Source: Eubacteriales bacterium (GTDB lineage Bacteria > Bacillota > Clostridia > Oscillospirales > CAG-272). Taken from it: a DNA stretch of 59,472 nt. Both the position numbers and the translations under genes were made by a program. The notes beneath the pieces were generated by a model. That model did not search any database and had not been told where the DNA came from. It was given only the letters and a program-made list of their open reading frames with translations. The stretch lies in assembly GCA_045594745.1 (NCBI GenBank), contig JAZNZC010000001.1:1-59472 (forward strand), given 5' to 3'. Positions 20,649 to 29,559 of this stretch are shown here, in pieces. Numbering within the stretch: the first letter of the stretch is position 1; every line of letters begins with the position of its first letter.

Positions 20649-21302
20649 ATGACTTACGTAATTTCGGATATTTGCGGCAACTATCAAAAATTCAAGGAGC
20701 TGATGGATAACGTTCTCATCAGCGATAGCGATACGCTCTACATTCTCGGCAACACCGTTGATTTTGGCGACGAGCCGATGGAGCTGATCGAGGACATCAG
20801 TATGCGCGCAAACGTCTACGCAGTAGCAGGCGAGCGCGACTATCTTGCCGCACGTATGCTGTACGGCTTTGATAAGATGCTCAAGGGTGGCACCACGCCC
20901 GATGCAAATTATATTTCCGAGATGACCGCATGGGTCGCCGAGGGCGGACAAACCACTCTCGACGGCTTCCGTGCACTCGATGCCGACTCCCGTGAGGGTG
21001 TGCTCGATTATCTTGCCGAAATGACGCTTTACGAAGAAGCAGACGTGAAGGGCAAAACATACATTCTGATGAGTCGCGGCATTGCAAATTACGACCCGGA
21101 TACCGATCTTGAGGACTACGAGCCCGAGGACTTTTTCGCGCCCGACGCAACCGCTCCAGAGATCGAGGATGCCATTGTTGTAGTTGGCGGAGAGCCCACC
21201 AAGAGCGGCAAGATCGAGCGAGAGGGCAGCGTGATTCGCATCAACTGCGGTGCAAAACTCGCGTGCCTCTGCCTTGAGACCGGCAAGGAGTTCTACGTCT
21301 GA
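20649..21302 (+). CDS. Calcineurin-like metallophosphoesterase homolog with degenerate active site
   Basis: YVISDICG, LYILGNTVDFG, GERD in place of SDxHG, GDxxDRG, GNHE. Confidence 0.7.
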   Translation: MTYVISDICGNYQKFKELMDNVLISDSDTLYILGNTVDFGDEPMELIEDISMRANVYAVAGERDYLAARMLYGFDKMLKGGTTPDANYISEMTAWVAEGGQTTLDGFRALDADSREGVLDYLAEMTLYEEADVKGKTYILMSRGIANYDPDTDLEDYEPEDFFAPDATAPEIEDAIVVVGGEPTKSGKIEREGSVIRINCGAKLACLCLETGKEFYV

Positions 21303-22696
21303 TGCAAAAAAATGATATTTTGCGTGTCCGCATCGAGGAGATCAACAATCTCGGCTTTGGCGTGGCACACGCAGAAGAGAAGAACGGCACGCGCGGCAAG
21401 GTCATTTTTGTGCGCGATGCTGTCACCGATGATGTGCTGGATGCGCGTATCATCAAAGTGAATAAAAGTTATCTCATTGCAAAAATTGAAAGAATGATAG
21501 AGCCCTCTGCGCTTCGCGCAACCGAGGGCGTTTGCACCGCCGCGGGATGCGGAGGGTGCGTTTATCAGCATATCCAGTATGAGCACGAAGCCGCCCTCAA
21601 GCGCGACTACGTCGAAAATGCATTCCGCAAAGCGGGGCTTTCGGATGTGAAAGTGGGCGAGCTTCGCCACACGGGAGAACTGACACGCTACCGCAACAAG
21701 GCGCAGTATCCCGTTGCTAACGGCAAGGCGGGAATGGTCGCGGGCTTTTATGCCACGGGTACACATCGCATCGTGCCTATGTCCGATTGCGCGCTTCAGC
21801 CCGAGGTGTTTGGCAAAATCGTGAACTACATCTGCGCGTTTTGCGACCGTAACGGCATTCGCGCCTACGAAGAAGAAAACGGATGCGGCGAATTGCGCCA
21901 CATTTATCTGCGCACGGGCGCCGAGACGGGCGAGGTGATGGTTTGCCTCGTTGTCAACGGCAAACATCTCAAAAACGAGGATACCCTCGCACGCGAATTG
22001 ACAGAGTATTTCCCCTCTGTCAAGAGTGTGATGCTCAATGTCAACCACGAGAATACCAACGTCGTCCTTGGCGATGACTACCGCTGCATCGGCGGCCACG
22101 ATTATATCGAGGATGTTTTGTGCGGACTGACATTCCGCATCTCCGCGGGAGCATTTTATCAGGTCAATCACAACGCCTGCGAGCTGCTTTACGGCATCGC
22201 GCGCGAGCGCGCAAAACTGACAGGAAAAGAGACCGTCCTCGACCTTTACTGCGGCATTGGCACCATCGGGCTTTCGATGGCAAAGGAGACGGAGAAGGTC
22301 ATCGGTATTGAGATCGTCGAAGAAGCCGTCACACGCGCTGCCGAGAATGCCGCGCGCAACAACATAACAAACGCCTATTTTTATTGCGGTGACGCTTCAA
22401 ACGCCGAAAAGCTGTTGGAGCGAACAGAGGCCGCCCACGGCGATATCTCGGGAGCAACCGTCATTATGGACCCCCCTCGCAAGGGAAGCACGCCCGAGCT
22501 CATCACCTACCTCGCCAAGCGCAACTTCGCGCGCATCGTCTACGTCTCCTGCAACCCCGACACCCTCGCCCGCGATTGCGTGCTGTTCAGAGAATTGGGA
22601 TACGAAATTGGAGAGGTAACGCCTGTGGATATGTTCCCGAGGACAGGACACGTGGAAAGTGTCGTTTGTCTGACGCGGTCAGACAAAGCGACGTGA
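21302..22696 (+). CDS. rlmD: 23S rRNA m5U1939 methyltransferase
   Basis: TRAM domain, CGGC, YRNKAQ, FYQVN, DLYCGIGTIG, DPPRKG, YVSCNP, VDMFPRTGHVE. Confidence 0.95.
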   Translation: MQKNDILRVRIEEINNLGFGVAHAEEKNGTRGKVIFVRDAVTDDVLDARIIKVNKSYLIAKIERMIEPSALRATEGVCTAAGCGGCVYQHIQYEHEAALKRDYVENAFRKAGLSDVKVGELRHTGELTRYRNKAQYPVANGKAGMVAGFYATGTHRIVPMSDCALQPEVFGKIVNYICAFCDRNGIRAYEEENGCGELRHIYLRTGAETGEVMVCLVVNGKHLKNEDTLARELTEYFPSVKSVMLNVNHENTNVVLGDDYRCIGGHDYIEDVLCGLTFRISAGAFYQVNHNACELLYGIARERAKLTGKETVLDLYCGIGTIGLSMAKETEKVIGIEIVEEAVTRAAENAARNNITNAYFYCGDASNAEKLLERTEAAHGDISGATVIMDPPRKGSTPELITYLAKRNFARIVYVSCNPDTLARDCVLFRELGYEIGEVTPVDMFPRTGHVESVVCLTRSDKAT

Positions 22697-22961
22697 TATA
22701 ACGCCTTACGGCGCGTGATATAGAACGCTTCGCGTTCGTGATATGCACCCTTCGGGTGCGTGATATGTCGCTTGCGCGACGTAAGGCGATGGCGTTCCAC
22801 GCTCGGCTTTGCCGAGCATATCACGCCGAGCAACGCGAGGCTATATCACGCTTGGCGCAGCCAAGCATATCACGAAAGCCAACGGCTTTCCATATCACGC
22901 GCGACGAAGTTGCGCTATATCACGACGGCAACGCCGTCTATATCACTCCACCGTAGGTGGA
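22692..22961. repeat. Hairpin array: 4x CGTGATAT then 6x ATATCAC linkers separating 11 sequence-variable stem-loops
   Basis: e.g. gcaccc-ttc-gggtgc, gctcggc-ttt-gccgagc, gcttggc-gca-gccaagc, gaaagcc-aac-ggctttc, tccacc-gta-ggtgga. Confidence 0.9.
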
Positions 22962-22976
22962 CCAAAAGGAGTATTT

Positions 22977-23330
22977 ATGGCAAAAACCTCACACGAACTC
23001 GCGATTGAATTTGCAGTTGAGATTACTGAATTATGCTCAAGAATAAAAGGGCGACCTGAATATACAAAGCAACTTATTCGCAGTGCATCTTCGATTAGTG
23101 CGAATATTGCTGAAGCTAAATATGCCGAGAGTAATGCTGACTTTGTTCATAAGCTCGAAATAGCCCAAAAGGAAGCAAACGAAACCGAAACTTGGCTTAG
23201 TGTTTTGTGTAAGAGCGGTATTATTGATGAGCTCACTTTCAAATCTTTACGAAACAAGTGTGGTAAGATCAGAAGAATGTTGATTGCTTCTATTACGACT
23301 GTTAAATCAAAATCTAACAGACAAAAGTGA
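22977..23330 (+). CDS. Four-helix bundle protein (23S rRNA IVP / Avd-like family)
   Basis: QLIRSASSISANIAEA...DFVHKLEIAQKEANETETWL signature; AAGGAG RBS. Confidence 0.88.
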   Translation: MAKTSHELAIEFAVEITELCSRIKGRPEYTKQLIRSASSISANIAEAKYAESNADFVHKLEIAQKEANETETWLSVLCKSGIIDELTFKSLRNKCGKIRRMLIASITTVKSKSNRQK

Positions 23331-23387
23331 TTTTTGAGCAAAACTCGAAATTCTTATTTACAGCTGTTTGGTATAACATATCGAAAG
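23328..23387 (+). repeat. Repeat B copy 1 (pre-ORF motif, possible extended -10 promoter)
   Basis: ttttgagcaa.actc.aaa...tttaca.ctgtttggtataacatatcgaaag, also at 26118-26176. Confidence 0.7.
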
Positions 23388-23412
23388 TTTTTTCATAAAG
23401 GGGGAACGAAAA

Positions 23413-23679
23413 TTGACAAATAAAGAAATGATTTTAGATAGCTTAATTGACGATGACGAAGCATTTACTCAAATAGTGGAATATTTTGAGTTGGTTGCCG
23501 AAATCAAAATATCTCATCAAGAAGTTGAAAAATTATTAGAAGAAATGTTAGATGAAGGCTATATTTCTATAAATTATAGCTGGAAAAATGAACATGGTGA
23601 ATACCCATATTCGTTGACTGAAAAAGGCAAAAAGGCTTGGGAAGAAATAAAGGAGTTATATATAGTCATCCATTTATAA
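23413..23679 (+). CDS. Cassette cargo: small winged-helix-like protein
   Basis: TTG start after AAGGGGG; LLEEMLDEGYI...YSLTEKGK wing motif. Confidence 0.65.
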   Translation: MTNKEMILDSLIDDDEAFTQIVEYFELVAEIKISHQEVEKLLEEMLDEGYISINYSWKNEHGEYPYSLTEKGKKAWEEIKELYIVIHL

Positions 23680-23680
23680 A

Positions 23681-23815
23681 ATGAGACTTTAAGGTAAGCA
23701 ACCTTTCGGAGAGGGAGCAAAATATACCTTTTGGCTTTACAACCCCCGTTTTTGACACAAAAATATACCTTTTGGTCTTATGACCCATGTTGAGTCCGTC
23801 GTTTGTCTGACGCGG
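23681..23815 (+). repeat. Cassette junction 1 (three boxes plus rlmD tail)
   Basis: Boxes at 23683, 23723, 23764; tail catgttgagtccgtcgtttgtctgacgcgg at 23786. Confidence 0.85.
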
Positions 23816-23826
23816 AAGGAGTAAGT

Positions 23827-24192
23827 ATGGATAATATTTTTACAACAATTCAAAAATTAACCGAATTAAATGACTTTTACTCGGTCTTATCCTTTCTTCG
23901 TGAAAAGGAAAAGGAGGGCGATATTGTTTTATATGCAGGAACATATTGTTTTGAAATGGCTTTAGAACGTTTTGGTAATTACGATGATGCTTCTTTTTAC
24001 ATTTACACTACGCAAGATAAGAGCGGGTATTGTGTTTACATAAATAGAATGGGGTGTGGAATCCGTGAGGATAACAAAATCTTTAAATTTTCTCACCGTT
24101 ATCTATACAATAAAAACCATTTAAGTAACTGTTTCTTTGGAGAAAAGGATTGCCGTTCTGGCGAATATTTTAAGAAAAAGAGTAAAAAGTGA
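23827..24192 (+). CDS. Cassette cargo: hypothetical protein
   Basis: AAGGAG RBS inside the tail repeat; stop inside next arm. Confidence 0.7.
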   Translation: MDNIFTTIQKLTELNDFYSVLSFLREKEKEGDIVLYAGTYCFEMALERFGNYDDASFYIYTTQDKSGYCVYINRMGCGIREDNKIFKFSHRYLYNKNHLSNCFFGEKDCRSGEYFKKKSKK

Positions 24193-24243
24193 GACCTTTT
24201 GCTTTCACAACCCCCATTTTTGACAGGTTTTGAGACCTTTTGC
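24185..24243 (+). repeat. Truncated junction (two boxes, no rlmD tail)
   Basis: gagaccttttg at 24191 and 24232 with caaccccc between. Confidence 0.8.
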
Positions 24244-24284
24244 GAAGCAAAAACTTCACCAATCAACAAAAAGGAGAAAGCAAT

Positions 24285-24743
24285 ATGAGAAAAAAACGCA
24301 CATTTGCCTTTCATAGCAGATTAGATCCACGCAATTTTGGTGTAAGAATGCAAGAAGAAGCGAAACAAGCACGTTTACCAATTGAGCAATCCGAAAATGC
24401 ATTTAATTTGCGTATTGACGGCAATCACGGTGGTCAAGTTTTCTATCAGGCTCGCATATCCGCAGACGAATATGGTGGCTCTCTTATAGAAGGGGAGATA
24501 ATCACCATTCCTTGGAATGAGGGTGAAAATAAAACTAAGTTCGAAAAAGTTATGGAAGTGATTGGTTACGTACTTGGTGGTATTGTTTTGTCACCTATTA
24601 TCATTTTGGTTTTTCTAATTTTGGGATTTGATGAATTGTTTTGTCTTTTTAAAAACAAGGGCAAAAGAGAATTGCCAAGAGAAGAGAAAAAACTTCTTGA
24701 TTTTATGCTCAATAAACTATGTTGTACTCAAATTACGGATTAA
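24285..24743 (+). CDS. Cassette cargo: hypothetical membrane protein
   Basis: AAGGAG RBS; one C-terminal hydrophobic segment. Confidence 0.7.
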   Translation: MRKKRTFAFHSRLDPRNFGVRMQEEAKQARLPIEQSENAFNLRIDGNHGGQVFYQARISADEYGGSLIEGEIITIPWNEGENKTKFEKVMEVIGYVLGGIVLSPIIILVFLILGFDELFCLFKNKGKRELPREEKKLLDFMLNKLCCTQITD

Positions 24744-24751
24744 GTCGCGGT

Positions 24752-24849
24752 AAAAATATACCTTTTGTAGTTTCCACCCCCGTTTTTGGCACAAAAATAT
24801 ACCTTTTGGAGTCTTAACCCACGTCGAGTCCGTCGTGTGTCTCACAAGG
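24752..24849 (+). repeat. Cassette junction 2
   Basis: Boxes at 24757, 24798; tail at 24820. Confidence 0.85.
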
Positions 24850-24857
24850 AGATAATT

Positions 24858-25250
24858 ATGGAGTTTAGCGAAATTTATAAAACAGTTTTTGAAATCAATC
24901 CCAGCTTGAAAGACAAGATTGAAAACGACGCAAAAGACTTTTGCGTCATCAAATTTCATGAATATTTGACGATTGGATTTGATGATGATTATGTTGATAT
25001 CAATCAAGGATTCACGCATGCGCATCTTGATGGAGTGGATAACAAGCTATTTTTTGATATTATTCAAGGAAATATGGTTTTTGTGCAAGACACGCGAAAG
25101 TTTTCAATAAAAATGTTTTCCTTGTTGCAACCCTGGAATTTGAAAATAACGAGCAAACAAAAATTTGAAACTAAAAAAGCTTCACTTATGAAGAAGAAGT
25201 ATTTGCGCATATATACAGCAAATGAAATCATAAAAAGAAGCGAAAAGTGA
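24858..25250 (+). CDS. Cassette cargo: hypothetical protein
   Basis: AAGGAG RBS in tail; stop inside next arm. Confidence 0.7.
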   Translation: MEFSEIYKTVFEINPSLKDKIENDAKDFCVIKFHEYLTIGFDDDYVDINQGFTHAHLDGVDNKLFFDIIQGNMVFVQDTRKFSIKMFSLLQPWNLKITSKQKFETKKASLMKKKYLRIYTANEIIKRSEK

Positions 25251-25341
25251 GATTTTAAGGTATTACACCCCCCATTTTTGACCGATTTTGAGACCTTTTG
25301 GAGTCTTGACCCATGTCGAGAGTGTCGTTTGTCTGACGAGA
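25243..25341 (+). repeat. Cassette junction 3
   Basis: Boxes at 25249, 25290; tail at 25312. Confidence 0.85.
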
Positions 25342-25354
25342 GAGGAGTAATGAT

Positions 25355-25843
25355 ATGGAAAATCTTTTATTTAGTGATGTTCCGCAAAACGATGCCAAGG
25401 TTATGAAAAGTATGAAAGTAACACGAATTGTGTTAATTATTTTTTGTGCCATTGTTTTGCTTTTTGCGGTGCTTGGCTTGATTTTGAAAGACATTGTCAT
25501 CGTGATTGATTCGGTAATTGGAATTGTGCTTTTCTTTTCTCTTTTTATAACTTGCTTGTGTATGGAACAGCAGTATTTGCTTGTTTTTACTGATAAAATC
25601 AAGTATAAAAAGGGGCTCTCAGGAAAAGAAAAGCAGTTGACAATTGCTCCAAGTCAATACAAAATCAAATTGAGAAGGCTAACCACCCGAGGCGGCTATA
25701 CGGTTTGGATGTTGTTCTACAACCAAAAAGGCAAAAGGGTGTTGTCATATAAACTGTGCCAACCCCTCACGGACAAAAGAAAATATGATTTGAGCAAAAT
25801 AGGCTGTGAAATCATTGACCGGCAAAAAGTGATAAAGCAATAA
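25355..25843 (+). CDS. Cassette cargo: two-TM membrane protein with basic soluble domain
   Basis: GAGGAG RBS; two hydrophobic helices. Confidence 0.75.
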   Translation: MENLLFSDVPQNDAKVMKSMKVTRIVLIIFCAIVLLFAVLGLILKDIVIVIDSVIGIVLFFSLFITCLCMEQQYLLVFTDKIKYKKGLSGKEKQLTIAPSQYKIKLRRLTTRGGYTVWMLFYNQKGKRVLSYKLCQPLTDKRKYDLSKIGCEIIDRQKVIKQ

Positions 25844-25872
25844 AATTGACAGAGCGGTTTCAATAAAAAGGC

Positions 25873-25972
25873 AAAAGGTGAGACTTTAAAGTATTACACC
25901 CCCTGTTTTTCGACCATTTTGAGACCTTTTGTACTCTTGATCCACGTCGAGAGTGTCGTTTGTCTGACGAGA
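25873..25972 (+). repeat. Cassette junction 4
   Basis: Boxes at 25880, 25921; tail at 25943. Confidence 0.85.
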
Positions 25973-25985
25973 AAAATTTAACCTT

Positions 25986-26063
25986 GTAGGGACCGGCCTC
26001 CCGGACGGTCCGTTGAAAAGATAAAGGCCGTTGTTGCGGACCGTCGAGGACGCCGGTCCCTAC
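25986..26063. repeat. REPIN-like inverted pair of GTAG REPs
   Basis: gtagggaccggcctcccggacggtccg ... cggaccgtcgaggacgccggtccctac. Confidence 0.8.
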
Positions 26064-26117
26064 CAAAATCGGTGTTCAAAATCAAAAAATGCCCCAATTT
26101 TGCGTTGGGACAAATGA

Positions 26118-26176
26118 TGATTTTGAGCAATACTCAAAAGTACATTTTACATCTGTTTGGTATAACATATCGAAAG
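26118..26176 (+). repeat. Repeat B copy 2
   Basis: Matches 23328-23387; degenerate third copy at about 26767-26800. Confidence 0.7.
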
Positions 26177-26184
26177 GGGATTTC

Positions 26185-26652
26185 ATGAAAAAAAGCAAAT
26201 TAAACATCATTCAAAATGAAAACAAAATTACGGTCAAGAAAAAACCTGATGTTTCAAATTGTGTTATTTTCGCAGGGGTATTTCTTGCAGGAATTTTGCT
26301 TCCCATCATTTTTGGAGAATTAAGAGATGTTCCTTTGTTTTGGGTTGTATATGCGTTTTGCATGTTAGCAAACATTGCACATTTTACATCGACATTCTTT
26401 GGGAAAGTCGTGGTTGACTCGGAAAAACGAGAAATCAACATATATAATCTGTGTAAAGAAACATACCGTTTTGATGAACTGAAAGAGCTGAAAAGTTTCT
26501 TCCAAGAAGGAGACTCGGACGGTGGAATGGACACTCATAAGGTGTTGTTTATCTTTACAAACGGGCATAAAAGCGAAATACAAACAACAAGTAAAGAACA
26601 AACCCAAGAACTCATTGATGTGTTGAACGGGGTCATATTTCCGCAAAAGTGA
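26185..26652 (+). CDS. Cassette cargo: two-TM protein with possible PH-like C-terminal domain
   Basis: AAGGGG RBS; two TM helices; stop inside next arm. Confidence 0.7.
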   Translation: MKKSKLNIIQNENKITVKKKPDVSNCVIFAGVFLAGILLPIIFGELRDVPLFWVVYAFCMLANIAHFTSTFFGKVVVDSEKREINIYNLCKETYRFDELKELKSFFQEGDSDGGMDTHKVLFIFTNGHKSEIQTTSKEQTQELIDVLNGVIFPQK

Positions 26653-26743
26653 GACTTTAAGGTATTACAACCCCCATTTTCAGCCCATTTTGAGACCTTT
26701 TGTACTCTTGATCCACGTCGAGAGTGTCGTTTGTCTGACGAGA
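26645..26743 (+). repeat. Cassette junction 5 (near-identical to junction 4)
   Basis: Boxes at 26651, 26692; tail at 26714. Confidence 0.85.
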
Positions 26744-26806
26744 AAACAACCCCGCCCTACGAAAATATTTTACAATAGTACAAGTTAACATACCGAAAGG
26801 ATAATT

Positions 26807-27361
26807 ATGATTTCTGACGAAGGAAGTAGATTCAAATCTTGGAGCAACCTAAAAAAGCAGATGAATGATTTACTTTGCGATTCACTCAAGGGGAAAATTT
26901 CGTATTTTTATACCTGTTATCACGAAGTTCACAACGCTTACGGCAGAGCGACTATCAATTATTGCAAGAACGAAATTGTCGCCTTTTCGTGGGTGGAGCG
27001 ATATCACCAGATGTACGATATGAGTGAGCAATACAAAAAGATGGATGATGGTTCACGCCCACCTGCGAATTATGAAGATGCTGTAGATGCTTATATGGCA
27101 GCCAGTGCTGTGGTCACGAAAGAAAAATGGATGCCGAATTGTACTTTGTGCGAGGCGGATTTCATCAATTCCATTACCGTTTATCTCAAGACAAATATCT
27201 CAACCGCTCTTCAATCGGATAATTATCTGTTGCGCGTATTTGCCTACATGGATAGAAGAGTTGGTAAACGAACGCTTATAAAAATCAAAGATGATGTGGA
27301 AAAGCTGCCTGAATGGGTAAGGCAGTTCTATCGCATACGCTGTGAAGCTGAGAAAGTTTGA
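26807..27361 (+). CDS. Cassette cargo: conserved hypothetical protein (resembles SF0329-type family)
   Basis: WSNLKKQ...LCDSLKGKI and DRRVGKRTL motifs recalled from a widespread uncharacterised family. Confidence 0.7.
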   Translation: MISDEGSRFKSWSNLKKQMNDLLCDSLKGKISYFYTCYHEVHNAYGRATINYCKNEIVAFSWVERYHQMYDMSEQYKKMDDGSRPPANYEDAVDAYMAASAVVTKEKWMPNCTLCEADFINSITVYLKTNISTALQSDNYLLRVFAYMDRRVGKRTLIKIKDDVEKLPEWVRQFYRIRCEAEKV

Positions 27362-27415
27362 AATATACCTTTTGACTTTATGGTCCACGTTGAGAGTGTC
27401 GTTTGTCTTTCGCGA
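27361..27415 (+). repeat. Cassette junction 6 (one box plus tail)
   Basis: Box at 27364; tail at 27386. Confidence 0.8.
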
Positions 27416-27435
27416 AAATAATATGAGGTACATTT

Positions 27436-27789
27436 ATGAATGACATTGAACTTATCTACAATGAATTAAAAGACAAGTACAAATTGCTTTTAACCAATAG
27501 TTTCGCATTAAATGAAGGGTTTACGTGGGATGTTCCCGTTATTTGTGGCAAATCTCCATCGGGCAAATTTTGGCTCTACGCCGATGAAGATATTCCCGAT
27601 CCACACGGTATTGAATTTGTTTTCTCTGTAGAATACGAAAAGCGAACTCGGTTCAGAAAGCGCTTGGTTAAATGTCACACCCATTGGCATCCGCAGACTA
27701 TAGAGCAAGCTATTGCGGATGTTGAAGACTTTATGGATGGCAAAATTCATTTTTCGCAGACACTTACGGGAGTTTTGATCAAACGTTGA
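27436..27789 (+). CDS. Cassette cargo: hypothetical protein
   Basis: GAGG RBS; runs into the last junction. Confidence 0.65.
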   Translation: MNDIELIYNELKDKYKLLLTNSFALNEGFTWDVPVICGKSPSGKFWLYADEDIPDPHGIEFVFSVEYEKRTRFRKRLVKCHTHWHPQTIEQAIADVEDFMDGKIHFSQTLTGVLIKR

Positions 27790-27811
27790 AAGTGTCGTTT
27801 GTCTCACGAGG
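27759..27811 (+). repeat. Cassette junction 7 (degenerate; probable oldest rlmD tail)
   Basis: gacacttacgggagttttgatc-a-aacgttgaaagtgtcgtttgtctcacgagg. Confidence 0.75.
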
Positions 27812-27824
27812 CAAATCCAACCTT

Positions 27825-28000
27825 GTAGGGGGCGACGTCCTCGACGCCCCGAGAACAAACGGATTTTTGATTGTTAAAAAAGAAAACCGCATGAGAAAGA
27901 CACGCCGTCTGATTTATTTGTGCTTTTTACAACGGGTCGTCGAGGACGTCGACCCCTACAAAAGTTGTTTTCCCCGTAGGGGCGATTCACAAATCGCCCG
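27825..28000. repeat. Cluster of three GTAG REP-like palindromes
   Basis: 27825-27851 (+), 27933-27959 (-), 27976-28000 (+). Confidence 0.8.
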
Positions 28001-28041
28001 CAAAGAGACGAACATTTATCAATTCAGAAAGGACGCCTATT

Positions 28042-29559
28042 ATGAAAATTGCAAGCATTATGAATTTTGCGCGGCAGATCGATCAGCGTATGGAGGATAG
28101 CGAAAATATCCTCTTTAACGCAACGCGTGCCGAACTCGAAATGGTCAACGAATTTGGCTTTGAGAATACCTTCCTTTTGCAATACGACGTCCTTTGTGAT
28201 CCGCGCTATGCGGAACTGTTCCGCGAAAAGGGAACCGAGCGTACCGAGCTTGGCATTTGGTACGAGATCGTCGAGCCTCTGACCTCTGCCTGCGGACTCC
28301 CTTACAAGAGCGAGCGCGGCTGGCGTTGGGATTGGCATATCGTTCCAGGCTTTTCAATGGCTTATACCCCTCGGGAGCGCGAAATGCTCATCGACGAGGC
28401 GATGCGAAAATTCAAAGAGGTCTACGGTTATTATCCGCGCACTGTGGCAAGCTGGCTGATCGACACACACACGGTTCGCTATCTTGCAGAGCATTACGAC
28501 GTCGATGCTATCGCAATCTGCCGCGATCAGACCAACACAGATGCCTACACGCTCCACGGCGGATATTTCAATCAAGCATACTATCCCTGCAAGAACAATA
28601 TCTTCACCCCCGCGCAAAGCGAGGGAGAGCAGGTGAATGTTCCTGTGTTCCGTCTTTTGGGGCCTTGTCCCATTCACAACTATGACAACAAAAAATACCT
28701 CACCCACGCGTGGGATGCGCGCCTGCACTGCGGTTGCTTTACAATGGAGCCCGTTGGCTCTGTCGGCGCCGCGCCCGAGAACGTGGATTGGTTCTATAAA
28801 ACATTTTATCAAAACGAGGATCTTGGATTTTCCTGGACGCAGATCGGTCAGGAGAACAGCTTTGGCTACACCGAGTTTTTGCCGCAGCTGCGTATGCAGA
28901 TCGAAAAACTGACAGAGCAAAAGAATGTTCAAGTAATGAAGATGTGCGACGCGGGCGCGTGGTTCAAAAAGACTTACCCGAGCACGCCTGCTACGTCGGT
29001 GGTCGCTCTGGACAACTGGGACAGAGGAAGTGATGCGCAATCGGTTTGGTACGATTGCCAAAGCTTTTCTGCAAATCTCTTCCGCTTCGAGCGGAGCATC
29101 TTTATTCGCTCGTGGCATCTGTTCGACGAGCGCGTGCCCGAGCATTACATCACTGAAAAATGCACCACATTCGATGCGGTGTATGAAAATTTGCCTCTTG
29201 TCGACGCTCTGTTCTGGAATGACGGCGAAAATTACAAGAGCGGCATTCAAATTGACGCCGATGCGTCGTCTTTTGCGGTCGAGCGCCGCGGCGAGGACTC
29301 CTTGGCAGTCAAATGGAGCGGTGGCGAGGTGATATTCCTTCCCGACCGCATCAAAATCACTGCTCCCGTGCTTCGCTTTTGGGCGAGTCGCGCAAAGTGC
29401 TTGACGGTGGCAGGGAATACCATTCAGTACAACTATAAAGGAACGCCTTATACATTGGAGATTATCAGCGCCGATGTCCACGAGGAAGCCGATCATATCT
29501 CCATCACGCCAACGAGCGGCCTGTGCGAGCTCATCCCACGCCGCGCCGAAACTGTTTGA
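28042..29559 (+). CDS. Uncharacterised protein, possibly glycoside hydrolase/deacetylase barrel
   Basis: Long ORF with RBS; TFLLQYD, ELGIWYE, KFKEVYGYYP motifs. Confidence 0.6.
   Translation: MKIASIMNFARQIDQRMEDSENILFNATRAELEMVNEFGFENTFLLQYDVLCDPRYAELFREKGTERTELGIWYEIVEPLTSACGLPYKSERGWRWDWHIVPGFSMAYTPREREMLIDEAMRKFKEVYGYYPRTVASWLIDTHTVRYLAEHYDVDAIAICRDQTNTDAYTLHGGYFNQAYYPCKNNIFTPAQSEGEQVNVPVFRLLGPCPIHNYDNKKYLTHAWDARLHCGCFTMEPVGSVGAAPENVDWFYKTFYQNEDLGFSWTQIGQENSFGYTEFLPQLRMQIEKLTEQKNVQVMKMCDAGAWFKKTYPSTPATSVVALDNWDRGSDAQSVWYDCQSFSANLFRFERSIFIRSWHLFDERVPEHYITEKCTTFDAVYENLPLVDALFWNDGENYKSGIQIDADASSFAVERRGEDSLAVKWSGGEVIFLPDRIKITAPVLRFWASRAKCLTVAGNTIQYNYKGTPYTLEIISADVHEEADHISITPTSGLCELIPRRAETV

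What the first reader, a model, noticed from the sequence alone, without database searches (positions are those of the whole stretch)
22649..27811. Integron-like gene-cassette array built on the 3' end of rlmD
Seen: the last conserved 10 codons of rlmD (22649-22678) recur seven more times (23786, 24820, 25312, 25943, 26714, 27386, 27782). They delimit units of 1137, 1034, 492, 631, 771, 672 and 396 bp, each with one or two unrelated, co-oriented, AT-rich ORFs. No integrase, relaxase or transposase is present. Established: rumA/rlmD 3' ends are targets of serine-integrase ICEs/IMEs in Firmicutes, but those are large self-encoding elements. Inference: these are minimal non-autonomous cassettes. 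Each brings its own rlmD tail, so integration restores both the gene and the target and cassettes stack with the newest next to rlmD. This would be functionally an integron whose attI is a housekeeping gene and whose recombinase acts in trans.
Basis: partly seen in the sequence, partly recalled or inferred. Interest (0 to 1): 0.92.

Follow-up and report, generated by a model that had tools for sequence, protein, structure and literature searches.

The report
Integrase-less gene-cassette array behind rlmD
Behind a ribosomal-RNA methylase gene, this gut bacterium has stacked seven small foreign gene cassettes, each bounded by a copy of the gene's last ten codons. Most also carry the same roughly 70-base signal, an integron-like layout with no recombinase nearby that recurs in many related gut genomes.

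Summary
The last ten conserved codons of rlmD (22649-22678) recur seven more times at the stated coordinates (8 matches, 0 expected) and nowhere else in the 2.26-Mb assembly.

Copies 2-6 are each preceded by a conserved ~68-nt "arm" with two direct ACCTTTTG boxes. Copy 7 keeps half an arm and copy 8 none.

The layout is widespread:
- Arm plus tail was found in at least 118 genome stretches and 41 metagenome contigs.
- It sits behind RlmD proteins only 32-93% identical to this one.
- The other arrays give 111 units of 287-6609 bp, median 847.

Identical cassettes occur tail-to-tail at different ranks in different genomes. They are more alike (77-97%) than the adjacent rlmD ends (49-88%) in 10 of 10 pairs. 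No tyrosine or serine recombinase lies in any of about 140 loci.

Best reading: non-autonomous, mostly single-gene cassettes inserted by site-specific recombination at the rlmD end by an unidentified enzyme acting in trans. The enzyme, the exact crossover and circular intermediates are not shown. I found no published description.

The parts
21302..22696 (+). rlmD (23S rRNA U1939 methyltransferase). Its last codons after ...VVCLTR (SDKAT*) come from the first cassette.
   Evidence: ORF; TIGR00479 rumA 376 bits against cut-off 183.55; translation of the tail.
22649..22678 (+). Tail copy 1, the working end of rlmD. It is preceded by gene sequence, not by an arm.
22679..23785 (+). Cassette 1. It holds an inverted copy of the tail; a long GTGATAT/ATATCAC palindrome (about 22691-22946, Gut-1-like); a four-helix-bundle 23S_rRNA_IVP gene (22977-23330); a promoter-like module (23320-23387); a small winged-helix ORF (23413-23679); and an arm (23718-23785).
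   Evidence: Pfam PF05635 1.3e-25 and weak HTH_34; TIGR02436; Rfam Gut-1 34.2 bits below the gathering score; 86% identical over 733 bp to the first unit of G014.
23786..23815 (+). Tail copy 2 (HVESVVCLTR, TCC serine), followed by KE* and by an RBS and ATG.
23816..24819 (+). Cassette 2, which is two fused cassettes. ORF 23827-24192 (121 aa) ends at an arm without a tail (24191-24242). Then come ORF 24285-24743 (152 aa, membrane segment) and an arm (24752-24819).
   Evidence: Internal arm found. Contigs of runs X1 and X2 join 24180 to 24754, so they lack the second ORF (table 5). No Pfam match.
24820..24849 (+). Tail copy 3
24850..25311 (+). Cassette 3: RBS, ORF 24858-25250 (130 aa, no family) and arm 25244-25311.
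   Evidence: A 537-nt contig of run X11 spans 24786-25320 (record 13).
25312..25341 (+). Tail copy 4
25342..25942 (+). Cassette 4: RBS, ORF 25355-25843 (162 aa, membrane protein) and arm 25875-25942.
   Evidence: The same cassette, tail to tail, is in G028 (96.7%, rank 1 of 1) and in G014 (93.8%, last unit).
25943..25972 (+). Tail copy 5
25973..26713 (+). Cassette 5: REP-like palindrome 25986-26063, promoter-like module 26109-26176, ORF 26185-26652 (155 aa, membrane protein) and arm 26646-26713.
   Evidence: (I3, D5)
26714..26743 (+). Tail copy 6
26744..27385 (+). Cassette 6: ORF 26807-27361 (184 aa, SF0329 family). Only the proximal 25 nt of an arm remain (27361-27385).
   Evidence: PF25753 1.4e-44; NF049912; arm score 0.53.
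27386..27415 (+). Tail copy 7 (HVESVVCLSR)
27416..27781 (+). Cassette 7, decayed. ORF 27436-27789 (117 aa) runs into the last tail and there is no arm.
   Evidence: Homologues in L054, L073, L076, L109 and L062 are all followed by a normal arm. Arm score here is 0.18, at background level. A contig of run X1 joins 27408 to 28040 with 146 other letters between, so it lacks this unit.
27782..27811 (+). Tail copy 8 (NVESVVCLTR), followed by the REP-like palindrome 27810-27974. This is probably the displaced original gene end and terminator.
   Evidence: (I1). The same tail-plus-GTAGGG hairpin layout is seen where relatives show a single tail.
28042..29559 (+). Conserved downstream host gene (505 aa, no family). 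It marks the far end of the variable region.
   Evidence: 90-95% identical protein downstream of rlmD in G003, G004, G028, L053 and L060; no Pfam or NCBIfam match.

Best explanation
The region 22649-27811 is a tandem array of small, non-autonomous gene cassettes, built by site-specific recombination at the 3' end of rlmD.

A cassette consists of three things: a few codons plus a stop that finish rlmD; usually one cargo gene, either promoterless with an RBS right behind the tail or carrying a conserved promoter-like module; and a conserved ~68-nt arm. The arm reads box ACCTTTTG - CCCCCNTTTTT - box ACCTTTTG - 11 nt, and abuts the conserved tail CAYGTNGARWSNGTCGTKTGTCT.

Arm plus tail is the cassette's attachment site. 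The same tail inside rlmD is the chromosomal target. Each insertion therefore recreates an intact gene and a new target, and cassettes pile up.

Shown here: the anatomy, its recurrence behind very different rlmD genes, cassette-wise presence, absence and re-ranking with break points in the tail, and horizontal transfer of single cassettes.

Inferred: that the joining is done by a recombinase encoded elsewhere (type unknown); that the crossover lies near the arm/tail border, around CAYGT; and that insertion is at the gene-proximal site with decay at the far end.
For: Anatomy:
- 8 tails and 5 full arms in this array.
- The arm consensus from 103 non-redundant arms of other genomes is conserved over about 68 nt.
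- 111 units elsewhere measure 287-6609 bp, median 847. A few are counted twice, because 4 loci duplicate genomes already held.

Spread:
- 13 of 20 fetched loci of relatives hold 2 or more tails.
- There are at least 118 stretches in genome contigs and 41 in metagenome contigs.
- They sit behind RlmD proteins 32-93% identical to this one in 62 of 100 other stretches.

Modularity and mobility:
- 10 cassette families are shared tail-to-tail between different genomes at different ranks.
- In 10 of 10 pairs the cassette is more alike than the neighbouring rlmD end (77-97% against 49-88%).
- Contigs of other gut metagenomes lack single units, with joints at 27408 and at 24180/24754.

Coding imprint on the tails:
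- 61 of 103 arm-adjacent tails encode HVESVVCLTR exactly.
- In the part not fixed by my search pattern (positions 17-29), third codon positions vary most.

No recombinase in cis:
- 0 phmmer hits among 4,686 and 681 ORFs, while the control found 24 of 25 known recombinase loci.
- None appears among the 25 displayed of the 57 Pfam families hit by 82 cargo representatives.

Crossover placement:
- Linkage of tail variants to the left cassette ends near position 8, and to the right cassette starts near positions 8-9.
- There is a weak dyad, TCTTGAC-CCAY-GTCGAGA, centred on CA.

Distal decay: arm scores along the array are 0.97, 0.97, 0.92, 0.84, 0.92, 0.53 and 0.18.
Against: - No recombinase was identified. 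Five other array-bearing genomes share only a Xer-like tyrosine recombinase. One of them shows that enzyme plus a 226-aa resolvase only, and another shows no serine recombinase. All are draft genomes.
- No autonomous element with this attachment site was found. Scans of viral contigs gave one hit that I read as a chance match in coding sequence, and plasmid and phage searches gave nothing.
- No circle or empty-site read could be looked for, because only contigs were served.
- Tail variants are not cleanly linked to either neighbouring cassette. Over 12 high-identity pairs I counted 48 mismatches in left tails and 34 in right tails, by hand. The 11 nt between box 2 and the tail are also near baseline. 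That fits more than one crossover point, or frequent homologous exchange, as well as it fits a single site.
- The dyad signal is modest: 0.396 mean complementarity, with the next centres at 0.38 and 0.37.
- The pairs are few and not independent.
- The loci were selected by the arm-plus-tail pattern itself.
Confidence: 0.6

Rival explanations
1. Homologous exchange, not site-specific recombination. The conserved tail (30 nt) and arm (68 nt) act as short homology patches. Through them, DNA taken up from other gut Clostridia is inserted, swapped or deleted by the host's general recombination. The arm would be kept for another reason, such as a regulatory or terminator-like signal.
For: Tail variants, and the 11 nt in front of them, are hardly linked to either flanking cassette, as expected if crossovers fall anywhere in the conserved block. 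No recombinase is found in cis or shared among array genomes. A terminator-like hairpin spans the arm/tail border at 25931-25956 and 26702-26727.
Against: This does not explain how arm-plus-tail ends arose on more than 80 unrelated cargo families. It also does not explain why cassette limits are so sharp, with identity starting 0-6 nt behind TGTCT and ending in the tail. Thirty bases of imperfect identity is at the lower limit for RecA-type exchange (general knowledge, recalled). The hairpin is not kept by compensating changes, because arm variants and AGT/TCC tails combine freely. RNAalifold finds no consensus structure on either strand.
Confidence: 0.2
2. Accretion of decayed integrative elements (CIME-like). 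Each unit is what is left of a larger ICE, IME or prophage that integrated at the rlmD end with its own integrase and then lost almost everything.
For: Site-specific accretion with integrase-less remnants is established in streptococci (passages of PMC5704250). rlmD is listed among integration hotspots (passage of PMC13651849). One unit in G031 is 6.6 kb and carries a restriction-modification system. Low-GC ORFs without recognisable tails lie beyond the last tail in G003, G004, L053 and G028.
Against: Of 111 units, none shows a recombinase or a fragment of one. Sizes cluster at one gene, median 847 bp. The same cassettes recur tail-to-tail in different genomes, which independent decay would not give. 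Cargo ORFs often start at an RBS directly behind the tail. No phage or plasmid record carries the site: 0 of 2.9 million viral contigs hold the tail, and blastn of the arm finds nothing.
Confidence: 0.12
3. Assembly artefact. Strains with different single cassettes behind rlmD were threaded into one chain through the shared arm-plus-tail repeat.
For: The genome is a draft of 153 contigs, 80.65% complete. Many relatives' contigs end inside their arrays. No run holds more than 0.29 of the sampled words of the region.
Against: The longest exact run that I saw shared by two junctions is about 60 nt, read by eye. Arrays of 3-5 tails occur in many records whose contig names differ in style, which suggests different assemblers. 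Contigs from two other runs bridge the arm/tail junctions at 24820 and 25312 in the same order as here (records 13 and 20). The distal decay gradient and the fused cassette 2 are not what a chain of live alleles would give.
Confidence: 0.05

Closest known systems
Integrons, and CALINs (attC clusters lacking an integrase)
   Same: Arrays of small, mostly single-gene, co-oriented cassettes, many of them promoterless. Each ends in a conserved recombination signal. Cargo is very diverse and mostly of unknown function. CALINs give a precedent for arrays without an adjacent integrase (recalled, not from a call).
   Different: There is no intI next to the array. The signal is a double-strand-type arm with direct repeat boxes, not a folding attC hairpin. 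The platform is the coding end of a housekeeping gene, which every insertion must rebuild. The hosts are Clostridia.
Site-specific accretion and cis-mobilizable elements (CIMEs) of streptococcal ICEs and IMEs
   Same: Tandem elements are bounded by direct repeats that contain the end of a target gene. Members without integrase keep attL and attR and depend on a relative's enzyme (passages of PMC5704250; PMC13651849).
   Different: CIMEs are decayed ICEs or IMEs of several kb, sitting beside an integrase-bearing partner. Here the units are gene-sized and uniform, shared across families of hosts, and no partner element was found in about 140 loci.
SCC and pseudo-SCC composite islands at rlmH in staphylococci
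   Same: Elements stack at the 3' end of a 23S rRNA methyltransferase gene. Each is bounded by a repeat of the integration site, and some lack recombinase genes. I saw only abstracts in the listing (10.1101/336396 and PMC13739063).
   Different: The target there is rlmH, not rlmD. The elements are 3-60 kb and the Ccr serine recombinases are carried by the elements. No Ccr-like gene lies in or beside any array here. The three large serine recombinases of this genome sit on other contigs.
dif modules (pdif) of Acinetobacter plasmids, and Xer-exploiting elements
   Same: Small cargo modules without their own recombinase, bounded by recombination sites and thought to be moved by a housekeeping enzyme acting in trans. 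I saw only abstract starts in the listing (PMC6449649, PMC13141974).
   Different: Here all sites are direct, carry a one-sided 68-nt arm, and show no dif-like 11-6-11 layout. A crude dif search in this genome gave nothing convincing.
Tycheposons of Prochlorococcus and the ssrA islands of Dehalococcoides
   Same: Tandem arrays at the 3' end of a conserved gene, with a partial gene repeat between units. As I recall, these include cargo-only units. I saw only abstract starts in the listings (10.1101/2020.12.28.424599; PMC3146451); the details are recalled.
   Different: The targets there are tRNA or tmRNA genes. The units are kb-sized islands, most of them with their own recombinase.

Membership tests
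Integron | intI tyrosine recombinase gene next to the attI site and cassette array | tested here: not met
   No PF00589 match anywhere on the window contig C1. 0 recombinase hits in 141 other array loci.
Integron | attC sites: imperfect inverted repeats that fold as single-strand hairpins | tested here: not met
   The arm holds direct repeat boxes. RNAalifold on 103 arm+tail sequences gives -0.75 and 0.0 kcal/mol on the two strands, so no consensus structure.
Integron | Small, co-oriented, mostly promoterless cassettes read from the platform side | tested here: inconclusive
   Size and orientation fit. An RBS and start codon lie 4-25 nt behind the tail in cassettes 2, 3, 4 and 7. Cassettes 5 and 6, and the second ORF of cassette 1, carry a promoter-like module (D5). 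No expression data were available.
CIME / ICE-IME accretion | [quoted passage not shown] | tested here: met
CIME / ICE-IME accretion | Units derive from ICEs or IMEs, shown by remnants of integration or transfer genes or by an intact relative with the same att sites | tested here: not met
   No such remnants among the displayed families for 82 cargo representatives (25 of 57 shown). No intact relative in the genome, viral, plasmid or phage collections searched.
SCC elements | Integration into the rlmH end by Ccr large serine recombinases carried by the elements | tested here: not met
   The target is rlmD. No serine recombinase lies in or beside the arrays.
dif modules / IMEX | Bounded by dif-like XerC-spacer-XerD sites | tested here: not met
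   The tail and arm have no 11-6-11 dif layout. There is only a weak dyad centred on CA. The dif-like scan found no convincing site in this genome to compare with.
dif modules / IMEX | Moved by the host's housekeeping Xer enzyme | not testable with these tools
   A Xer-like recombinase (orthologue of C153:20339-21388) is the only tyrosine recombinase shared by this genome and five other array-bearing genomes. That shows compatibility only.
Site-specific recombination cassette system (generic) | Excised circular form and restored empty site | not testable with these tools
   Only contigs of public runs were served, with no raw reads.

The most novel reading that the evidence does not exclude
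Gut Clostridia from several families share a pool of single-gene cassettes run by a still unidentified recombinase acting in trans. This would be a Firmicute counterpart of the integron. Its attI is the coding end of rlmD. Its cassette signal is a double-stranded, one-sided arm with two ACCTTTTG boxes. Its enzyme is not linked to the array, and could be a host Xer-like enzyme or a new family. A second arm class with the same boxes, found at other loci (C27, C78, C151), would mean the system serves several platforms. The very frequent four-helix-bundle (IVP) cassettes with a Gut-1-like palindrome might be part of the machinery rather than cargo.
Probability: 0.4. Interest if true: 0.9.

Novelty: new variant of a known kind. 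Interest (0 to 1): 0.8.

Why it matters
If the reading holds, integron-style gene capture is not confined to intI/attC systems of Gram-negative bacteria. Uncultured gut Clostridia would exchange single genes across family borders through a housekeeping-gene platform. The cargo includes restriction enzymes, methylases, nucleases, esterases and many membrane proteins of unknown function.

It would give a defined, short DNA substrate (about 100 bp of arm plus tail, and the rlmD end) with which to fish for a new site-specific recombinase. Such enzymes are useful tools.

It would also explain why metagenome contigs of these organisms so often break behind rlmD. It places a relative of the orphan Rfam motif Gut-1 in a genomic setting. 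And it offers a marker locus for strain typing in rumen and hindgut communities.

Tried and rejected
Recombinase hunt.
- phmmer with this genome's 11 recombinase ORFs found nothing in the array loci or in the 18 type-2 loci.
- Five other array genomes share only a Xer-like enzyme.
- NCBIfam naming of the genome's recombinases gave only generic Xer-like and Ccr/XisF-like matches below cut-off.
- The core palindrome and the tail occur nowhere else in the genome.
- One 14-mer of the arm recurs 158 nt upstream of the serine recombinase gene at C151:71087-72610. The local alignment is only 18 nt, score 31 against a shuffled maximum of 25. I treat it as a weak lead, not evidence.

Autonomous element.
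- Viral-contig scans gave 0 hits for arm+tail, 0 for the tail alone, and 1 chance hit for the arm alone (L204, in AT-rich coding sequence).
- The type-2 boxes gave 1 hit (L205), which is three direct AAAAAGACACCTTTTG repeats in a phage intergenic region next to a weak winged-helix ORF, with no integrase.
- blastn of the arm against plasmids and phages gave no match.

Other ideas considered and set aside.
- attC-like or structured-RNA arm: rejected. Rfam finds nothing on the arms.
- Target-site duplication by a transposase or Cas1-like integrase: the 11 nt in front of the tail at right-hand junctions are never the host's own, and tails within one array differ by AGT/TCC.
- dif and Xer: a crude dif scan gave four weak candidates and none convincing.
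- Defence content of the window's cargo: PADLOC and PHROGs gave only weak hits for the 88-aa winged-helix ORF.

Runs. No run holds more than 0.29 of the sampled words. Parts without cover are not interpreted. The 'goes back' joints (24808 to 22658, and 26615 to 24754) carry other letters that differ from this array, so they are other genomes' arrangements and not circles.

Class-wide sample. Arm+tail was found in 2 of 400 other genomes. This is 'not found in those searched', not 'absent'.

Supplementary files of papers were not opened. Those of PMC13651849 (its data S2 and S3 list att sites, including rlmD) might bear on whether rlmD-end elements of Clostridia were catalogued.

Claim of 'not in print'. 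This rests on searches only, and the library lacks most subscription journals.

Full report
WHAT IS THERE.

The ORF 21302-22696 is rlmD (TIGR00479, 376 bits against a cut-off of 183.55). Its last conserved ten codons, 22649-22678, recur seven times downstream at 23786, 24820, 25312, 25943, 26714, 27386 and 27782 (family D4). The pattern finds 8 sites with at most 1 mismatch, against 0.00 expected in 100 shuffles. In the whole 2.26-Mb draft genome the motif occurs only here, apart from one mismatched chance site.

Seven copies translate as HVESVVCL(T/S)R and the last as NVESVVCLTR, and each meets a stop 1-21 codons later. The copies differ mainly at third codon positions (8, against 4 first and 1 second), and serine is AGT in some and TCC in others. 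GC drops from 0.51-0.55 in the flanks to 0.34-0.42 across the array. The ORFs all point the same way. The window is the whole contig C1, and it has no tyrosine or serine recombinase.

Copies 2-6 are each preceded by a conserved arm (families D1-D3). Anchored on the tail, 103 non-redundant arms from other genomes give this consensus:

aaAa..A.ACcTTTtGg..TTaCaACCCCCnTTTTTngccnatttttAtACCTTTTGgagTCtTGACC | CACGTcGAgagTGTCGTtTGTCTgAC

That is two direct ACCTTTTG boxes 41 nt apart, a C5-T5 block between them, and 11 variable bases before the tail.
- Copy 7 keeps only the proximal 25 nt of an arm, and copy 8 has none. Arm scores along the array are 0.97, 0.97, 0.92, 0.84, 0.92, 0.53 and 0.18, against a background mean of 0.25.
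- An arm without a tail lies at 24191-24242, between the two ORFs of unit 2, so that unit is two cassettes that lost the site between them. Contigs of two other runs carry the first ORF joined directly to the distal arm (joint 24180 to 24754).
- Homologues of the cassette-7 gene in five other genomes are all followed by a normal arm, so the copy here has lost its arm.
- In cassettes 2, 3, 4 and 7 an RBS and start codon follow the tail within 4-25 nt, and in cassette 2 the stop that closes rlmD sits between the RBS and the ATG.
- Cassettes 5 and 6 and the second ORF of cassette 1 instead carry a conserved promoter-like module (D5), which also turns up in other genomes' cassettes.

CARGO.

In the window:
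- a four-helix-bundle '23S rRNA IVP' protein plus a small winged-helix ORF (cassette 1);
- an SF0329-family protein (cassette 6);
- six ORFs with no family, three of them with membrane segments.

In the other arrays, 158 ORFs fall into 82 families, and the largest (21 members) is again the four-helix-bundle protein. Pfam on the 82 representatives hit 57 families, of which 25 were displayed. These include HpaII, MvaI/BcnI, Bpu10I and Mrr restriction enzymes, a C5 methylase, GIY-YIG, HNH and T5orf172 nucleases, a SASA esterase, GH43, peptidase C26 and a metallo-beta-lactamase fold. No recombinase or transposase was among them.

IS IT A FAMILY OF MOBILE UNITS?

Spread in relatives. The tail pattern matched in 21 of 36 genomes of the same genus and in 2 of 24 genomes of other families of the order. 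I fetched 20 of the 23 loci. Thirteen hold 2-5 tails with arms, and 7 hold one tail.

Spread in public collections. Their record titles name Clostridia, Oscillospiraceae, Christensenellaceae and similar metagenome-assembled genomes, mostly from ruminant guts. Metagenome contigs added 41 more. An even sample of the class gave only 2 of 400 other genomes, so the distribution is patchy.

Host diversity. In 62 of 100 other stretches RlmD was found beside the array, and it is only 32-93% identical to the window's protein.

Unit size. The 111 units measure 287-6609 bp, median 847. A few are counted twice, because four loci duplicate genomes already held.

Shared cassettes. Ten cassette families occur tail-to-tail in different genomes, at different ranks and with different neighbours. 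For example, cassette 4 of the window is the only unit in G028 (96.7%) and the last unit in G014 (93.8%). In 10 of 10 pairs the cassette is more alike (77-97%) than the last 279-393 nt of the neighbouring rlmD (49-88%). That means horizontal transfer of single cassettes.

Independent contigs. Contigs of four gut-metagenome runs from four studies carry parts of the array in other combinations. One joins 27408 to 28040 and so lacks cassette 7. Two bridge the junctions at 24820 and 25312 in the same order as here. No run holds more than 0.29 of the region's sampled words.

Beyond the last tail. In relatives this stretch is still low in GC and holds homologues of cassette genes without recognisable tails. 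The far end of the region is therefore a graveyard of older units, and 'single-tail' loci are not truly empty.

WHERE IS THE CROSSOVER, AND WHAT MAKES IT?

Cassette limits. Among high-identity cassette pairs, cassette-specific sequence starts 0-6 nt behind TGTCT on the left. On the right it runs through the arm into the tail.

Linkage along the tail. Over 23 non-independent pairs, linkage to the left-hand cassette fades by about position 8 of the tail. Linkage to the right-hand cassette begins weakly at positions 8-9 and is strong from position 26.

Symmetry. There is a weak dyad, TCTTGAC-CCAY-GTCGAGA, centred on the CA of CAYGT, with a second symmetric patch about 20 nt out.

Taken together, this favours exchange near the arm/tail border. 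Each cassette would then carry its own tail, which would explain the codon-wise conservation.

The evidence is mixed, though:
- Some families share right-hand tails rather than left-hand ones.
- My hand count over 12 pairs gives 48 mismatches in left tails and 34 in right tails.
- The 11 nt before the tail are also near baseline.

More than one exchange point, or added homologous exchange between tails, cannot be excluded.

No enzyme was found:
- There were no phmmer hits in about 140 loci, while the same queries recovered 24 of 25 control loci.
- There is no second copy of the site in this genome.
- No phage or plasmid carries it.
- Five other array genomes share only a Xer-like tyrosine recombinase with this one.

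The arm does not fold, so an attC-type single-strand mechanism is unlikely. Direct repeat boxes on one side of a core are what arm-binding tyrosine integrases or accessory-protein sites look like (general knowledge, recalled). A roughly 50-bp weakly symmetric site would also suit a large serine recombinase. I leave the type open.

COMPARISON AND VERDICT.

In function the locus works like an integron: small cassettes, one signal each, stacked at one platform, with highly diverse cargo. It fails the two defining membership tests, which are intI in cis and folding attC sites.

It shares one trait with CIMEs, pseudo-SCC elements, dif modules and cargo-only tycheposons, namely recombinase-less units that stack at a regenerated target. 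It differs from each of them in target, unit size, site structure and the absence of any autonomous partner (the details of some are recalled).

Four literature searches found no description of such arrays.

I rate it a new variant of a known kind, well supported as a mobile cassette system and open as to mechanism. Confidence is 0.6 for trans-acting site-specific recombination, 0.2 for mainly homologous exchange, 0.12 for decayed larger elements and 0.05 for an assembly artefact.

Noticed in passing
window 22691-22946; also L038 2645-2714, L034 5017-5089, L042 4469-4541, L093 2766-2850, L035 3800-3880: A long imperfect palindrome lies directly behind a tail and in front of the four-helix-bundle (IVP) gene. 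It has GTGATAT four times on one arm and ATATCAC six times on the other, with small hairpins between. It gives sub-threshold matches to the orphan Rfam motif Gut-1 (RF01706): 34-43 bits against a gathering score of 50. This holds here on both strands and in 5 of 6 other loci tested.
   Followed up: partly
G000 contigs C27:1987-2024, C78:77-114 and 1079-1115, C151:657-693 (loci L252, L262, L264): A second arm class with the same boxes: GACACCTTTTG, then 18-19 nt, then AGAYACCTTTT, then (A/C)TCACGTTTAAGGC and an intrinsic terminator. It ends small AT-rich units at several loci. It is present in 8 of 60 other genomes of the genus, on up to three contigs per genome. About half of the loci carry an IVP gene about 55% identical to those of the rlmD cassettes. 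No recombinase lies in the 18 loci.
   Followed up: partly
window 25986-26063 and 27810-27974: REP-like palindromes (GTAGGG...CCCTAC) behind tails 5 and 8. In metagenome contigs their summed depth is 10-100 times that of the neighbouring bins, so they are a widely dispersed repeat (I1 and I3, table 2). The same hairpin follows the single tail of relatives.
   Followed up: no
window 23320-23387, 26109-26176, and a degenerate copy near 26770-26806: A conserved ~65-nt promoter-like module (…TTTACAGCTGTTTGGTATAACATATCGAAAGG) in front of some cassette ORFs. It is also seen, read as spurious ORF starts, in cassettes of G005, G014, G018, G026 and G031 (D5).
   Followed up: no
L111 7114-7533: A tail followed by cassettes sits behind a different gene (a 381-aa ORF) and an intergenic stretch. 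There is no rlmD in the 7.1 kb upstream. This may be a translocated array or a secondary site.
   Followed up: partly
G000 C151:72768-72785: The arm's CCCCCGTTTTTGAC block recurs once outside the array, 158 nt upstream of a large serine recombinase gene (C151:71087-72610) at a low-GC contig end. The similarity is only 18 nt long.
   Followed up: partly
L041 (G031), 6.6-kb unit between tails: The largest unit seen carries a restriction-modification system: three C5-methylase-like ORFs, an HTH ORF, and HpaII- or MvaI-type endonuclease families among the cargo hits. So whole defence systems can ride as one cassette.
   Followed up: partly
G003, G004, L053 and G028, downstream of the last tail: A 91-aa zinc-ribbon-like ORF (MSKKKMCDGCK…GKFKKGK) lies beyond the last recognisable tail. 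It is homologous to the cargo of a cassette family that elsewhere is bounded by tails (G006, L050, L054, L121, L127). This suggests fossil cassettes.
   Followed up: partly
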